Of a stretch of DNA of 64,000 nucleotides, positions 7,895-16,800 are shown piece by piece. The DNA comes from Escherichia coli (GTDB lineage Bacteria; Pseudomonadota; Gammaproteobacteria; Enterobacterales; Enterobacteriaceae): assembly GCF_024298765.1 (NCBI RefSeq), contig NZ_CP101210.1; one strand, given 5' to 3'. Within the stretch, counting starts at the first letter, position 1, and each line of letters opens with the position of its first letter. The position numbers were made by a program.

Positions 7895-10800
7895 GATGAG
7901 CGTCAATACCTGATGCGATGCTAGCGTGTTTATCATGCCTCCAGGCATTGCGCATGTCGCATCTGGCGATTTCCACCACTTACCCCAAATCCGCCATCAA
8001 CACTTTGGATTTACGCTGGTAGTTGTACAACTGCTTTTTGCTCTCGGGTAGTAAATCAATATCCACCGGGGTAAATCCACGTTCCTGGAACCAGTGAATA
8101 CTGCGCGTGGTCAGCACAAACAATTTGCTTAAGCCGCTCTGCTTCGCCTGAGCGGCAATGCGTTCCAGCAGAACCTCGCCCCGTGATGAACTGCGGTAAT
8201 CCGGGTGAACTGCCACACAGGCCATTTCCCCAATCTTCTCTTCCGGGAACGGATAGAGCGCGGCGCAGGCAATAGTCGTGTTATCGCGCTGAATAATGGT
8301 GAATTTGTCGATTTCCATCTCCAGCTGCTCGCGAGAACGGCGTACCAGAATACCTTGCTGCTCCAGCGGGCGAATCAACTCCAGAATACCGCCAATATCG
8401 TTGATTGTTGCGCGACGAATCTGCTCGGCGCTTTCCATCACAATCTGCGTACCGATACCGTCGCGTGAGAACAACTCTTGCAATAGCGCGCCATCTTCCT
8501 GATAACTGATTAAATGACAGCGACGCACGCCGCTGCGGCAGGCTTTCACTGCGCCACGCAAAAAGCGCACCGTACCGGAGTTGTAATCACCTTTCTCTTC
8601 CTGGGCTTCTACCCGTGCTTGCGCTTCGTTAGGGAAAAGTTCGGAGACAATATCACCGTCGTCATTAGTGACGCCCTGGGAAGAGCAAAAACCAATCATC
8701 TTTTCAGCTTTCAGTTTGATGGCCAGTTGAGTGGCAATCTCTTCCGAGGTCAGATTAAAGCTCTCGCCAGTGACTGAAACAGCGACCGGCCCCATTAGCA
8801 CTATTGCACCGCTGTCCAGTTGACGATGGATCGCGTCTTCATCAATCCGCCGGATACGCCCGCTATGGCAGTAATCCACGCCGTCATCGACGCCCAGCGG
8901 CTGGGCGATAATAAAATTGCCACTGACGACGTTGATATGCGCGCCCTGTAGCGGCGTGTTATTGAGACTCATCGACAGGCGAGCAGTAATATCCAGTTGC
9001 AATGTTCCCGCAGCCTGCTTCACCAGTTCCAGTGTTTTGGCGTCGGTCACACGTATATTCTTGTGATACAGCGGTTCGTGGTGATGCGCAGCCAGATTTG
9101 CGTCGATCTGCGGACGTGCGCCATAGACCACCACCAGACGGATGCCGAGGCTGTGCAACAACCCGATATCATTAACGATACTGGAGAAATTCTCATGCTC
9201 AATGGCTTCACCGCCGAGCATGATGACAAATGTTTTTCCCCGGTGGGTATTGATATAGGGAACCGAATGGCGGAATCCCTCGACCAGCTCGGTTTTACGT
9301 TCCTTTACCACGGTACACCTCTTTGCATGATTATTCGAAATTATTGTATTTTTATTCTGTTTTTTCGCAGGGTGCAAGTGTAAATTTTATGCGGGAGAGA
9401 GTTTTTTATCAGTAATACCGTGAATATAAAAAGAATGTTTACCGTTTTATAGATGACAGATTATGCGTCTTTCGCTAAAGTTTCCGGTCAAATTGGTCGT
9501 TTACTTGTTACACAGCTTAGATTTCTTTTGCTCGGGAGAGGCATGTCAGGATCCAACACTGCAATCAGCCGTCGTCGTTTACTGCAAGGCGCGGGTGCCA
9601 TGTGGCTATTGAGCGTAAGTCAGGTCAGCCTGGCTGCGGTCAGCCAGGTCGTGGCGGTGCGCGTCTGGCCTGCGTCCAGCTACACCCGCGTGACGGTAGA
9701 ATCAAATCGTCAGCTGAAATATAAGCAGTTCGCGTTGAGTAACCCGGAACGCGTGGTGGTGGATATCGAAGATGTAAACCTGAACTCGGTACTCAAGGGG
9801 ATGGCGGCACAAATTCGTGCAGACGACCCGTTCATCAAGTCGGCGCGCGTCGGGCAATTTGACCCGCAAACCGTACGCATGGTTTTTGAATTAAAGCAAA
9901 ACGTAAAACCGCAGCTGTTTGCCCTTGCGCCGGTCGCCGGGTTTAAAGAGCGTCTGGTGATGGACCTCTATCCGGCCAATGCACAGGATATGCAGGACCC
10001 GCTGCTGGCGCTGCTGGAGGATTACAACAAAGGCGACCTCGAAAAGCAGGTGCCGCCAGCGCAAAGTGGTCCACAACCAGGTAAAGCAGGGCGCGATCGT
10101 CCGATTGTCATTATGCTTGACCCTGGCCACGGTGGCGAAGACTCCGGTGCGGTGGGGAAATACAAAACGCGCGAAAAAGACGTGGTATTGCAAATAGCTC
10201 GCCGTCTGCGCTCTCTGATCGAGAAAGAGGGCAATATGAAGGTGTACATGACGCGCAATGAAGACATCTTCATTCCGTTGCAAGTGCGCGTAGCAAAAGC
10301 CCAGAAACAGCGTGCCGACCTGTTTGTCTCTATCCATGCCGACGCCTTTACCAGTCGTCAGCCGAGCGGTTCCTCTGTGTTTGCGCTCTCAACCAAAGGT
10401 GCAACCAGTACTGCGGCAAAATATCTGGCACAAACCCAGAACGCCTCGGACTTGATTGGTGGCGTGAGCAAAAGCGGTGACCGCTATGTCGACCACACCA
10501 TGTTCGATATGGTGCAGTCGCTGACCATTGCCGACAGCCTGAAGTTTGGTAAAGCGGTGCTGAATAAGCTCGGTAAAATCAACAAGCTGCATAAAAATCA
10601 GGTTGAACAAGCCGGGTTTGCCGTGCTGAAAGCGCCTGATATACCCTCCATTTTGGTCGAAACGGCGTTTATCAGTAACGTTGAGGAAGAACGTAAACTG
10701 AAAACGGCAACCTTCCAGCAGGAAGTTGCGGAATCAATCCTCGCAGGGATAAAGGCGTATTTTGCCGATGGGGCGACGCTGGCGAGAAGGGGATAATGTT

Positions 10801-13800: not shown

Positions 13801-16800
13801 AGAGTTATTGACATCGCATGGTGATAATATTCTCGTTTTTACACCTGTCTATAATGCATTTTTTGATATAATTAAACATAGTGAGAGAAATATTCTGACA
13901 GCCTCTTTGATTATAAAAAATGAGGGGGGCTACGCTATCAATTGGCAAGATTTTGATCTTAAGATTCAAAGCGCAAAGATGGTGTTATTATGTAATCCTC
14001 ATAACCCGACAGGAACCGTCTGGTCGGAAGAAGATCTGCATAAAATCGCTGCAAGCTGTGCAAGACATAATGTCTGGTTATGTTCAGATGAAATTCACAG
14101 TGATTTTGTTTTTAATCGTAGCTTTACATCTGCGCTTAAAATAAAAAAAGAAAAAGTAGTGGTGTTTAATTCGATATCGAAGACATTTAATGTTCCTGCG
14201 CTAACAGGATCGTATATGATTTCAACTGACGATAATTTTAATCATAAGTTCAGAACGATATCAAGATATCGCGATTTTGTAAACTCCCCATCCGTACTGA
14301 ATATAATTGCAACTATTATTGCCTATAACGAATGTGAGGGATGGTTAAAGTCATTAAAGGCACATATTGCCTCTAACATTCAATTCACCCAGCAGTATCT
14401 GAACGAAAATACTCCAGAATTGATCGTAAGGCCAGCTGATGGTTGCTATTTTTCGTGGATAGATTGCTCTGCTATTGGTTATTCCTTTGATGAATTCTAC
14501 AGTCGATTAATTCATGAAGGCAAAGTGGGCATTATGGCGGGGAATGTCTATGGAACGGAGGGGGAGGGCTACCTTCGTCTGAACCTGGCCTGCGGTCGAG
14601 AAAAATTATATATGGGGCTTACGCGTCTTGCGAGTGTAATTAAAAATATTAATCAAGGAAAATAAAAATGAACAGTACGGATCTTATCCATCTCATTAAA
14701 CATTTTATGCGTAACGAACATAAAGCAGTTGAAGAAGTTATTGATTCCCCCCTTTCGGAGGTCGCAAATTTAATTAAAGTATTACAGTCTTGTCAGGGGA
14801 AAGTTGTTTTTATTGGTGTCGGTAAGTCCGGTATTATTGCCCGAAAACTCGCCGCAACATTTGCCAGCACTGGAACTCCCTCGTTTTTTGTTCACGGTAC
14901 TGAAGCCGTACACGGCGATCTTGGGATGGTGGCGAAAGATGATGTTGTTATTCTTATTTCAAACAGTGGTGAGACGACAGAAATCCTGGCAACACTACCT
15001 AGTCTGAAAAAAATGGGTAATTATTTGATCTCCTTTACCCGCAGTCATCGCTCATCGCTTGCGATAAGTTGTGATTTATCCGTTGAAATTCCCGTAAAAA
15101 GTGAGGCGGATAATTTAGGTTTAGCGCCGTCATGCTCATCAACAGTCGTTCTGGTTGTTGGTGATGCGGTGGCGCTTGCGCTCTCCGAATTGAAAAAGTT
15201 TACTCGTGCTGATTTCGGCTTATATCATCCAGGAGGTGCGCTCGGTATTAAAGCAAACTCATAATTTTAGAATATAAAACAGTAACCGGTCACGCCATCT
15301 TTTGGGGTGGCGTTCATTGATGTGAGTGTCAGCTATGAAAAACGTTCTGGTCACCGTTCCCAGCTTTTCAGCGCGTTGTGTTTCTGCCAGCAAGCTGCTA
15401 AGAGAAAATCATTTTAACCTTATTATCAAGAATAATGTGGAGCATCTGGTTAAATCAGAATCCACAGTATTACGAGAATCTATTTGCGCAGTCATTGCCG
15501 GAAAAGATTGTTATCAAGCGGATACGTTATCGCGACTACCAGGAGTGAAAATAATATCGAGATTCGGGACAGGGATTGATAATATTGATCTTCATACGGC
15601 TCGACAATCAGGTATTGTGGTCAATAATGCTGTTGGGATTAATTCAAATGCAGTCGCGGAATTTATCATCGGTCTTATTTTTGCGAGCATGAGAAATATC
15701 CCCGGTAGCTATCATGCAATGCAAAATGGTTATTGGGGCGAGTCGCATGGCTGCGAGTTACAAGGTAAACGTATTGGCCTGCTTGGCTACGGCAATATTG
15801 GCAAAACACTGGCGAAAAGGTTATCTGGTTTTGATGTTGAGCTTTTAGCTTTTGACAAACAACCCGATTTCCAGGCCGCAGGCAAAGATGGAGTTCAGTT
15901 CGTATCAATTGAAGATATCTTTATGCAGTCTCATGTCATCATCGTTCTTTTGCCATTTTCTCCGGAGCTGGAGAACTTCATTAGTCATAAATATTTGTCG
16001 ATGATGCGCAATGGTGCTCTTATCATCAACGCCGCAAGGGGAAAGTTGCTGGATGAGGGTGCTTTACTTCAGGTAATTGAAGAACGAAATGTTTTTGCAG
16101 CGCTGGATGTGTTTAGCTCTGAACCGCTAGCGCAATTTAGCCCATTGCTACATGCCAGGAATATCATTACAACGCCGCATATTGCGGCCGCCACCGTTGA
16201 GTCATACCAGCAAACCGGGATATACGTTGCCAGGTCGATAATAGATTTCTTTGCAGGAAGGGAGATAAAAAACGTGCTGTGAGTTCAGCTAAGGAAGATT
16301 TCAGGTACAAAAAAACCGCAATTTGTGAAACACATTGCGGTTTATCAGCATCATAGGTGTTGGTTGCGGGGGCCACAGTCAAGAGGTTAATCCAACCTTT
16401 TGAAACTTAAGACATTCACTGTTCCCGAACCCAAGCTATCTACCGAAATATACACTCATTATCTGATGTGAATCAACGAGTAGATCGAATGGCCTGTTCC
16501 TCTCTTTTTTGTACACAGAGACTCCTTTTAAAAAATGGCAAGGGCACATATCCCTTATTGGTACATAAATCCCCCGATGTTTACTGACTTTGTTCCACCT
16601 TCGTATCCAGTAAAATGACATAGCGATTCAACAACTGATTTAACCGGGTATCAATTTGCGTCAACAGCGTTGGCGAAACCTCTCCGGTCTGTTTTTGCTC
16701 TTCCAGTTGCCGAAGCAGTTCTTCCAGCGGCGGCTCCTTTAACGACTGCCGGATGCCGTACACCGCCGTTTTCAGTTCCGAACCGGTCAGATATCTCCCC

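What the first reader, a model, noticed from the sequence alone, without database searches (positions are those of the whole stretch)
10797..16360. AT-rich accessory sugar module between amiC and the T6SS island, with a self-regulated antiterminator
From memory, K-12 has the tRNA-fMet genes directly after amiC; here five genes intervene. They are a BglG-family antiterminator, a MalX-like PTS EIICB, a MalY-like C-S lyase, a SIS-domain (arabinose-5-P-isomerase-like) protein and a 2-hydroxyacid dehydrogenase. The pairing of a Bgl-type antiterminator with a MalX/MalY-type pair (normally controlled by the MalI repressor) and a phosphosugar isomerase/dehydrogenase pair is an unusual combination. The substrate is not obvious. 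The module lies outside the 14-bp att-like repeat, so it is a separate acquisition from the T6SS.
Basis: partly seen in the sequence, partly recalled or inferred. Interest (0 to 1): 0.6.

Follow-up and report, generated by a model that had tools for sequence, protein, structure and literature searches.

The report
Known UPEC paf sugar operon (c3405–c3410)
The five AT-rich genes between amiC and the type VI secretion island are real and correctly identified, but they are the already-studied c3405–c3410 / pafR–pafP sugar-uptake operon of E. coli, whose sugar substrate is still unknown.

Summary
Five co-oriented, AT-rich genes fill exactly the gap from the amiC stop codon (10796) to a 15-bp tRNA-fMet-derived repeat (16360). 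They encode a BglG/LicT-type antiterminator with CAT and PRD domains, a MalX-like PTS EIICB, a PatB/MalY C-S lyase, a SIS-only sugar-phosphate isomerase and a D-2-hydroxyacid dehydrogenase.

This is the c3405–c3410 operon of PAI-CFT073-metV, at the same position in CFT073. Its regulator and permease are published as PafR and PafP (Baum 2014). Its isomerase, c3406, is a published arabinose-5-phosphate isomerase (Mosberg 2011) with a crystal structure (5UQI, 100% identical to the CFT073 protein).

1,688 of 5,426 complete E. coli genomes carry the module.

What this analysis adds:
- The leader holds a RAT-like hairpin overlapping a strong terminator. It is nearly invariant in E. coli and kept by compensatory changes in Citrobacter and Atlantibacter. 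This supports autoregulation.
- The module and the T6SS occur independently; all four occupancy states exist.
- The module sits at the same site in Atlantibacter hermannii, is under purifying selection, and has deep mosaic alleles.

The substrate remains unknown. Verdict: already known, low interest.

The parts
10797..10968 (+). Upstream part of the paf leader. It is AT-rich, the promoter is not confidently located, and it includes a hairpin at 10894-10916.
   Evidence: It begins right after the amiC stop and replaces the K-12 amiC-metV spacer. The sigma-70 scan finds no + strand site here. It varies at about 15% of columns among E. coli alleles.
10969..10994 (+). RAT-like hairpin (UCUUGU AA CUG UUAAAU CAG GCAAGG), the predicted PafR binding site.
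   Evidence: Fold. It is the only exact TGTWACTG-N6-CAGGCA match in the window. It shares the TGTnACTG-N6-CAGGCAA core with the K-12 bgl RAT. It is invariant in 7 E. coli alleles and nearly so in Citrobacter and Atlantibacter.
10987..11042 (+). Intrinsic terminator: stem-loop 10987-11034 followed by a run of 9 U. Its 5' arm overlaps the 3' arm of the RAT.
   Evidence: dG -27.9 kcal/mol, z -6.65, 0 of 200 shuffles as stable. It is retained with compensatory G-C to A-U changes in Citrobacter and Atlantibacter, at -25.7 and -27.4 kcal/mol, z -7.6 and -8.0.
11054..11878 (+). pafR: BglG/LicT/GlcT-family PRD antiterminator, 274 aa.
   Evidence: Pfam CAT_RBD and PRD. NCBIfam LicT 227 bits and GlcT 178 bits. 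Aligns to LicT structures 1TLV and 1H99. 97.8% identical to the CFT073 orthologue. The RefSeq start is at 11054.
11910..13490 (+). pafP: glucose-family PTS EIICB with no EIIA domain. It is the predicted transporter and the sensor for PafR.
   Evidence: TIGR02004 537 bits, below the 632 cut-off. 42% identical to K-12 MalX, with the EIIB motif NCVTRLR aligned to MalX NCITRLR. dN/dS 0.02-0.04.
13490..14665 (+). PatB/MalY-family PLP-dependent C-S lyase (c3407 by gene order).
   Evidence: TIGR04350 367.6 bits, above the 340 cut-off. 36% identical to K-12 MalY, with the SISKTF / SGSKSF lysine motif aligned. It is the most divergent gene of the module.
14668..15264 (+). SIS-only sugar-phosphate isomerase, the orthologue of CFT073 c3406 (a published arabinose-5-phosphate isomerase).
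   Evidence: Matches only the SIS half of KdsD, profile positions 36-201 of 328. 97% identical to PDB 5UQI/5VHU, which is 100% identical to the CFT073 protein.
15335..16282 (+). D-isomer-specific 2-hydroxyacid dehydrogenase, PGDH-like (c3405 by gene order).
   Evidence: The PGDH model scores 210 bits, below its 454 cut-off, and other 2-hydroxyacid dehydrogenase models also match. Best PDB match is 1WWK at 2.5e-48. The gene is absent from the Enterobacter four-gene variant.
16315..16341 (.). Hairpin ACCGCAAT-N11-ATTGCGGT, preceded by A7. It is the probable bidirectional terminator ending the operon and, on the - strand, the tRNA-fMet operon in genomes without the T6SS.
   Evidence: Read from the sequence. 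It is conserved in the O111:H8 module-only genome, and K-12 has an analogous A7-plus-hairpin at the same place.
16360..16374 (.). 15-bp direct repeat TTGGTTGCGGGGGCC, a copy of the tRNA-fMet 3' end. It marks the right edge of the module and the left edge of the T6SS island.
   Evidence: Copies at 16360 and at the 3' end of each of the four tRNA-Met genes. In module-only genomes the match ends exactly here, at a real tRNA-Met.

Best explanation
This is the E. coli paf / c3405-c3410 operon. It is a self-contained five-gene unit for uptake and catabolism of a PTS sugar, placed between amiC and the tRNA-fMet cluster.

Proposed mechanism (inferred unless marked otherwise):
- Transcription starts in the AT-rich leader and normally stops at the terminator at 10987-11042.
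- When the unknown substrate is transported by the EIICB PafP, phosphate drains away from PafP. PafP has no EIIA domain, so it presumably uses the general EIIA-Glc.
- PafR is then left unphosphorylated on PRD1. It binds and stabilises the RAT hairpin (10969-10994). The RAT shares bases with the terminator's 5' arm, so the terminator cannot form.
- The whole operon, pafR included, is read through. This is positive autoregulation, as with bglG, sacX-sacY and nagY.
- The imported sugar phosphate is processed by the PatB/MalY-type PLP lyase and the 2-hydroxyacid dehydrogenase. The single-domain arabinose-5-phosphate isomerase links a pentose-phosphate product to ribulose-5-phosphate.

Shown here:
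- The gene identities and identity with the CFT073 locus.
- The mutually exclusive RAT and terminator structures and their conservation and covariation.
- Independence from the T6SS.
- Purifying selection on all five genes.

Still inferred: the phosphorylation logic, the EIIA partner, the substrate, and the order of the enzymatic steps.

The confidence given applies to the identity of the locus and the antitermination switch. Confidence in the enzymatic pathway is much lower, about 0.2.
For: - Same genes at the same site in CFT073, 93-98.5% aa identity.
- c3405-c3410 is described as a conserved colinear set within PAI-CFT073-metV (PMC2831201).
- pafR is encoded in the metV island, and pafR/pafP mutants have mouse UTI phenotypes (PMC8882828). 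PafR is called an antiterminator (PMC9981650).
- The isomerase matches PDB 5UQI and the title of Mosberg 2011.
- CAT and PRD domains are present.
- His98, His157 and His205 align with LicT H100, H159 and H207 and are invariant.
- RAT/terminator.
- Only 31 nt separate pafR and pafP, and the downstream genes overlap or abut, consistent with one transcript.
- dN/dS is 0.02-0.15 for all five genes.
- The operon is colinear in E. whittamii, Citrobacter and Atlantibacter.
Against: - No promoter was identified in the leader.
- As I recall the abstract of Baum 2014 (full text not held), no in vitro expression from the paf promoter was detected and PafR's targets were called unknown. Binding to its own leader is therefore not experimentally shown, as far as I could check.
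- The PRD2 position equivalent to LicT H269 is an invariant Arg, so HPr-dependent control may differ from LicT.
- The isomerase's measured activity (Ru5P to A5P) does not obviously connect to a hexose-type PTS substrate.
- From memory of Mosberg 2011, a c3406 deletion was not attenuated.
- The Enterobacter variant lacks the dehydrogenase, so that enzyme is not essential to the core pathway.
- pafP is frameshifted in some lineages.
Confidence: 0.8

Rival explanations
1. The module and the T6SS are one genomic island (PAI-metV, c3385-c3410), acquired together at the tRNA-fMet gene, as the published island boundaries imply.
For: The literature defines PAI-CFT073-metV as including c3405-c3410. 947 genomes carry the two elements joined.
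Against: - The 15-bp tRNA-derived repeat lies between the two.
- About 740 genomes have the module followed directly by tRNA-Met.
- CUVM3 has a T6SS remnant but no module.
- A. hermannii has the module at this site without a T6SS.
- The module has no integrase and no flanking repeats.
Confidence: 0.07
2. The module is a recent horizontal acquisition from a low-GC (Firmicute-like) donor, which makes it a typical strain-specific accessory or virulence island.
For: - GC is 33-45% against 52-58% in the flanks.
- The regulator scores best against Gram-positive LicT and GlcT models.
- The nearest non-enterobacterial SIS-only homologues are in Firmicutes at 52-60% identity.
- Presence is patchy, in 31% of E. 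coli genomes.
- In Citrobacter it sits at a different tRNA (aspV) locus.
Against: - It is at the same amiC-metV site in A. hermannii, with divergence (67-86% aa) comparable to flanking amiC, mltA and argA (83-92%).
- Within-E. coli synonymous divergence is 0.16-0.58, as large as that to E. whittamii, and is mosaic. This indicates long residence and allele exchange.
- No Firmicute operon with the same architecture was found.
Confidence: 0.25
3. It is simply a second maltose/glucose MalX-MalY system, as the database annotation 'PTS system, maltose/glucose specific' suggests.
For: The best NCBIfam hits are the MalX-type IIBC model and the PatB/MalY family. The gene order EIICB then lyase is the same as malX-malY.
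Against: - Identity is only 42% to MalX and 36% to MalY.
- The MalX models score below their curated cut-offs (537 against 632; 526 against 665).
- There is no MalI-type repressor. Instead there is an antiterminator plus two extra enzymes.
- From memory of Baum 2014, many conditions failed to induce the operon.
Confidence: 0.1
4. PafR acts mainly as a global virulence regulator on distant RAT-bearing transcripts, and the isomerase supplies arabinose-5-phosphate for KDO or capsule synthesis. The operon would then not be a catabolic pathway.
For: Ectopic PafR changes expression of biofilm, motility and virulence genes (PMC8882828). A review places the isomerase in the LPS-precursor context.
Against: - The only RAT-like site in the 64-kb window is the operon's own leader, and it is the most conserved part of the leader.
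- The operon architecture is that of a typical PTS catabolic unit.
- SIS-only homologues in Firmicutes sit with kinases and transporters, that is, in catabolic contexts.
- E. coli already has KdsD and GutQ (established knowledge).
Confidence: 0.15

Closest known systems
c3405-c3410 / pafR-pafP operon of PAI-CFT073-metV in uropathogenic E. coli CFT073 (Lloyd 2009; Mosberg 2011; Baum 2014; Bryant 2010, PMC2831201)
   Same: Same five genes, same order, and the same chromosomal position between amiC and the metV-side T6SS. Amino-acid identity is 93-98.5%. The isomerase is 97% identical to the crystallised CFT073 protein.
   Different: This window carries a minority allele. Only 94 of 1,688 module-bearing genomes are at least 99% identical; most, CFT073 included, are 91-96% identical at the nucleotide level. 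The window also has four tRNA-fMet copies rather than three.
E. coli bglGFB operon (BglG antiterminator and BglF sensor permease)
   Same: - The antiterminator gene comes first and is preceded by its own RAT overlapping a terminator.
- The RAT core TGTnACTG-N6-CAGGCAA is shared.
- The PTS permease gene is adjacent.
- The locus is AT-rich and apparently silent.
   Different: - Only 30% identity to BglG.
- There is a single RAT/terminator rather than two.
- The permease is a glucose-family EIICB without EIIA, not a beta-glucoside EIIBCA.
- There is no phospho-beta-glucosidase; the operon has a lyase, an isomerase and a dehydrogenase instead.
Gram-positive GlcT-PtsG and NagY-NagE systems (BglG/SacY-family antiterminator controlling a glucose-family EII)
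   Same: An antiterminator of this family is paired with a glucose/GlcNAc-family EII. The NCBIfam GlcT model scores 178 bits, and the GlcT structure 3RIO matches. NagY also autoregulates and is linked to virulence (PMC9981650).
   Different: The host is an enterobacterium. The operon carries three extra enzymes. The fourth regulatory histidine is replaced by Arg.
E. coli K-12 malI-malX-malY
   Same: An EIICB followed by a PatB/MalY-type C-S lyase.
   Different: Identity is 42% and 36%. Control is by a LacI-type repressor, MalI, instead of an antiterminator. There is no isomerase or dehydrogenase.

Membership tests
c3405-c3410 / paf operon of PAI-CFT073-metV | Located between amiC and the tRNA-fMet (metZWV) cluster | tested here: met
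   The window order is argA-amiC-module-(T6SS)-tRNA-Met. CFT073 has the identical order.
c3405-c3410 / paf operon of PAI-CFT073-metV | Five colinear orthologues: antiterminator, EIICB, MalY-like lyase, SIS isomerase, dehydrogenase | tested here: met
   Amino-acid identity to CFT073 is 97.8, 98.5, 95.4, 97.0 and 92.7%.
c3405-c3410 / paf operon of PAI-CFT073-metV | The isomerase is the published and crystallised c3406 protein | tested here: met
   The CFT073 protein is 100% identical to PDB 5UQI/5VHU, and the window protein is 97% identical. The mapping to the name c3406 rests on gene order and the title of Mosberg 2011; the full text was not available.
BglG/SacY/LicT PRD antiterminators | N-terminal CAT RNA-binding domain | tested here: met
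   Pfam PF03123, E = 3.1e-14, residues 20-74 of the long ORF.
BglG/SacY/LicT PRD antiterminators | Two PRD domains | tested here: met
   PRD1 scores E = 1.9e-23. PRD2 is weak in Pfam (E = 0.096), but residues 57-269 align end to end with the LicT PRD1-PRD2 structures 1TLV and 1H99.
BglG/SacY/LicT PRD antiterminators | Four conserved phosphorylatable histidines (LicT H100, H159, H207, H269) | tested here: inconclusive
   H98, H157 and H205 are present and invariant. The H269 equivalent is an invariant Arg268. So three of four are present, which may change HPr-dependent control.
BglG/SacY/LicT PRD antiterminators | Target RAT hairpin overlapping an intrinsic terminator | tested here: met
   The RAT at 10969-10994 shares positions 10987-10994 with the terminator stem. 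It is conserved, with covariation, and its core is shared with the bgl RAT.
BglG/SacY/LicT PRD antiterminators | Antitermination activity and control by the cognate EII | not testable with these tools
   The literature calls PafR an antiterminator. From memory of the Baum 2014 abstract, activity was shown, but not on its own leader.
MalX/MalY (MalI regulon) orthologues | EIICB reaching the MalX equivalog/subfamily score, plus an adjacent MalI repressor | tested here: not met
   TIGR02004 scores 537 against a 632 cut-off and NF007509 scores 526 against 665. Identity to MalX is 42%. There is no LacI-type gene in the module.
PatB/MalY C-S lyase family | Score above the curated family cut-off, and the PLP-lysine motif | tested here: met
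   TIGR04350 scores 367.6 against a 340 cut-off. SISKTF aligns with MalY SGSKSF. Catalytic activity was not tested.
KpsF/GutQ/KdsD arabinose-5-phosphate isomerases | SIS domain followed by a tandem CBS pair | tested here: not met
   Only the SIS half matches, KdsD profile positions 36-201 of 328, and the protein ends at 198 aa. It works like an arabinose-5-phosphate isomerase (published for the CFT073 orthologue) but is a single-domain variant.
D-isomer-specific 2-hydroxyacid dehydrogenases | Family fold with a specific equivalog assignment | tested here: inconclusive
   There are many family hits, but all fall below the equivalog cut-offs (PGDH 210 against 454; GhrB 132 against 492). The best PDB match is 1WWK. 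The substrate is undetermined.
tRNA-integrated genomic island | Integrase gene and flanking direct repeats derived from the tRNA 3' end | tested here: not met
   The module has no integrase-like ORF. The only tRNA-derived repeat is at its right edge and belongs to the T6SS insertion. The left edge is the amiC stop codon, with no repeat.
Anti-phage defence systems | Any PADLOC model hit | tested here: not met
   All five proteins give zero hits.

The most novel reading that the evidence does not exclude
The operon is an old resident of the amiC-metV site in the Escherichia/Atlantibacter lineage rather than cargo of a pathogenicity island. Its own leader RAT is the long-sought direct target of PafR. 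It also encodes a still-undescribed catabolic route: a glucose-family PTS imports a host-derived sugar conjugate, a PatB/MalY-type PLP lyase processes it, and the product is funnelled through arabinose-5-phosphate to ribulose-5-phosphate. If so, this would also explain why MalX-type permeases and MalY-type lyases are so often paired.
Probability: 0.2. Interest if true: 0.55.

Novelty: already known. Interest (0 to 1): 0.2.

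Why it matters
The locus has reported links to urinary-tract colonisation, through pafR/pafP mutant phenotypes in mice, yet its inducer and substrate have never been found. This analysis offers three concrete handles for finding them:
- A conserved RAT/terminator switch in the leader. Deleting or mutating it would force the operon on.
- A clear boundary between the module and the neighbouring T6SS.
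- Evidence that the module is ancient, under selection, and present in about a third of E. coli, including non-uropathogens.

As a discovery, however, the finding is not new. The genes, their position, the regulator's family and the isomerase's activity and structure are all already published.

Tried and rejected
- Rfam at a permissive threshold over 10600-16700 gave no match; RATs of this type are evidently not detected there.
- The sigma-70 scan found no + strand promoter in the leader.
- PADLOC found no defence-system hits.
- I could not obtain the full texts of Baum 2014, Mosberg 2011 or Lloyd 2009. Details from those papers are from memory or from citing papers, and are marked as such.
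- Searches for c3405 to c3409 found only PMC2831201 as relevant.
- I looked for the same operon in Firmicutes via SIS-only homologues. Their contexts differ (PTS-GAT with aldolases; LacI-SIS-PfkB-MFS), so they gave no direct substrate clue.
- The Citrobacter flanks (fadE, yafV, tRNA-Asp, dnaQ, rnhA, gloB) carry no extra pathway genes.
- I considered that the 10997 ORF start extends the antiterminator. I rejected this because that stretch is the terminator and RefSeq starts at 11054.
- I considered a glucosaminate or 2-keto-6-phosphogluconate route to arabinose-5-phosphate. It is chemically attractive but has no supporting evidence.

Full report
**1. What is in the sequence**

Between the amiC stop codon (10796) and a 15-bp repeat at 16360-16374 lie five co-oriented + strand genes. 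RefSeq annotation of an identical stretch in strain 104 gives their starts:
- 11054-11878, PRD protein
- 11910-13490, PTS EIIC
- 13490-14665, MalY/PatB family
- 14668-15264, KpsF/GutQ-family isomerase
- 15335-16282, 'phosphoglycerate dehydrogenase'

GC content falls to 33-45% across this interval, against 52-58% on both sides.

- The first protein has a CAT RNA-binding domain (E = 3e-14), a strong PRD (2e-23) and a weak second PRD. It scores best against LicT and GlcT models.
- The second is a glucose-family EIICB closest to MalX, but below the curated cut-off (537 against 632 bits).
- The third passes the PatB C-S lyase cut-off (368 against 340).
- The fourth matches only the SIS half of KdsD/GutQ.
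- The fifth is a D-2-hydroxyacid dehydrogenase with no equivalog-level assignment.

K-12 does have metV directly after amiC. Two details need correction: the antiterminator starts at 11054, not at the longest-ORF start of 10997, and the repeat is 15 bp, not 14.

**2. It is a known operon**

CFT073 carries the same five genes in the same place: VasL/T6SS, dehydrogenase, isomerase, lyase, EIICB, PRD protein, amiC, argA. Amino-acid identity to the window is 93-98.5%.

Bryant et al. (PMC2831201) list 'c3405-c3410, PTS system, maltose/glucose specific'. They describe it as a conserved colinear set inside PAI-CFT073-metV, present in all four UPEC they compared.

A 2022 review (PMC8882828) states that pafR is a transcription regulator encoded in the metV genomic island of CFT073. 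It says that disrupting pafR impairs mouse urinary-tract infection, and it lists pafRP and pafP mutants from Baum et al. 2014. PMC9981650 calls PafR an antiterminator of the BglG/SacY family.

The title of Mosberg et al. [quoted passage not shown] The CFT073 SIS protein is 100% identical to PDB chains 5UQI and 5VHU, and the window protein is 97% identical.

I could not open Baum 2014, Mosberg 2011 or Lloyd 2009. The following is from my memory of their abstracts:
- Deleting c3405-10 attenuates CFT073 in mice.
- c3406 has arabinose-5-phosphate isomerase activity but is dispensable.
- The paf promoter is silent in vitro.
- PafR can antiterminate, but its targets are unknown.

That condition is met.

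**3. Regulation**

The leader contains a 48-nt stem-loop (10987-11034) followed by nine U. It folds at -27.9 kcal/mol, z = -6.65, and none of 200 shuffles folds as well.

Immediately upstream, 10969-10994 folds into a small interrupted hairpin. Its 3' arm (CAGGCAAGG) is also the 5' arm of the terminator, so the two structures exclude each other.

The hairpin shares the TGTnACTG-N6-CAGGCAA core with the K-12 bgl RAT that I fetched for comparison (GGATTGTTACTGCATTCGCAGGCAAAACC). It is the only exact match to that pattern in the 64-kb window.

Among seven E. coli alleles whose modules differ by up to 9%, the RAT/terminator block has 2 variable sites in about 75 columns. The rest of the leader varies at about 15% of columns.

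In Citrobacter and Atlantibacter the terminator is rebuilt with compensatory changes, for example GGCAAGGCA/TGCCTTGCC becoming GGCAAGACA/TGTCTTGCC. It keeps -25.7 to -27.4 kcal/mol, z = -7.6 to -8.0.

Only 31 nt separate pafR from pafP, and the later genes overlap or abut. One switch therefore probably controls the whole operon, including the regulator itself.

PafR keeps the histidines equivalent to LicT H100, H159 and H207. The H269 position is an Arg that is invariant from E. coli to Atlantibacter. PafP has EIIC and EIIB with the NCVTRLR cysteine motif, but no EIIA. It presumably depends on EIIA-Glc, as MalX and PtsG do (established knowledge). No promoter was found by the consensus scan.

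**4. Relation to the T6SS and evolutionary history**

The 15-mer TTGGTTGCGGGGGCC at 16360 is a copy of the 3' end of tRNA-fMet. It recurs at each of the four tRNA-Met genes 27 kb away, so the T6SS island sits between direct repeats.

A junction query showed 947 genomes with module and T6SS joined, against 1,688 genomes that carry the module. In the module-only genomes listed, the match stops exactly at window 16374, at a genuine tRNA-Met. Examples are O111:H8, RM9975, AR_0372, ECE313 and WP3-S18.

CUVM3 has amiC followed directly by the repeat and a T6SS remnant, with no module. K-12 has neither element.

The module itself has no integrase and no flanking repeats. It simply replaces the 73-bp K-12 spacer, from the amiC stop to the tRNA end.

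A scan of species-representative genomes found the complete colinear five-gene unit in several other places:
- Escherichia whittamii, at the same site.
- Atlantibacter hermannii, at the same site: argA-amiC-module-tRNA-Met x3-mltA. Module identity is 67-86% aa, against 83-92% for the flanking genes.
- Two Citrobacter species, where it lies next to tRNA-Asp between yafV and dnaQ.

An Enterobacter variant has four genes and no dehydrogenase.

All five genes show dN/dS of 0.02-0.15. Within-E. coli dS (0.16-0.58) is two to five times that of adjacent amiC, whose protein is identical in all these genomes. It is also mosaic along the operon. I read this as a long-resident locus with old alleles exchanged by recombination and frequent loss, rather than a recent pathogenicity-island acquisition. 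An original low-GC donor remains plausible, because the nearest non-enterobacterial SIS-only homologues are in Firmicutes.

**5. Function**

PafP and the lyase are only 42% and 36% identical to K-12 MalX and MalY. The 'maltose/glucose' label is therefore a family name, not a substrate assignment.

SIS-only homologues in Firmicutes sit in catabolic contexts such as LacI-SIS-PfkB kinase-MFS. This favours a catabolic role for the isomerase, arabinose-5-phosphate to ribulose-5-phosphate, over a KDO-biosynthetic one. No neighbourhood revealed the substrate.

My best guess, held with low confidence, is that a glucose-family PTS imports a modified sugar or sugar conjugate. The PLP lyase and the dehydrogenase would then convert it to a pentose phosphate, which enters the pentose-phosphate pathway.

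**6. Verdict**

Autoregulation by antitermination and independence from the T6SS are both supported and are now documented with structure conservation and occupancy data. The locus, however, is already described in the literature (the c3405-c3410 / paf operon, with a solved structure for one enzyme). Novelty is 'already known' and interest is low. The remaining open question, the substrate and in vivo inducer, is unchanged by this analysis.

Noticed in passing
window 43471-43877: The window has four tandem tRNA-fMet genes at a 110-bp period. K-12, CFT073, O111:H8 and the other fetched E. coli loci have three.
   Followed up: partly
window 44959-45236 and 45310-45587: A 278-nt tandem direct repeat, 97% identical. 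It duplicates the last ~225 nt of mltA plus ~55 nt downstream, which leaves a partial second mltA 3' end in the mltA-tcdA spacer.
   Followed up: partly
L005 3224-4790 (O111:H8 SF26) and L006 2553-4119 (RM9975): The EIICB gene pafP is annotated as frameshifted in these module-only genomes, while the other four genes remain intact. This suggests the transporter has been inactivated in some lineages.
   Followed up: no
hits H1-H3 (APEC strains VTB97379v, APEC17, APEC O2-211): IS elements (ISVsa5, ISCro1) are inserted inside otherwise 100% identical copies of the module in some avian pathogenic strains.
   Followed up: no
L016 7273-7821 (strain CUVM3): A MucR-family regulator gene lies between the 15-bp repeat and the VasL gene of the T6SS in some genomes. 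It is absent from the window, where 16375-16580 is non-coding. In CUVM3 the T6SS is a decayed remnant.
   Followed up: no
L018 4413-8591 (Enterobacter sp.): A four-gene variant of the module (antiterminator, EIICB, aminotransferase-fold lyase, SIS isomerase at 61-65% identity) lacks the dehydrogenase and lies next to fruBKA.
   Followed up: partly
window 9543-10796 (amiC) compared with 11054-16282: AmiC protein is identical (WP_000016907.1) in every E. coli genome fetched, while the adjacent module differs by 5-10% in nucleotides. There is a sharp step in diversity exactly at the amiC stop codon.
   Followed up: partly
summary: One of the 1,690 places holding the module is on a plasmid rather than a chromosome.
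   Followed up: no
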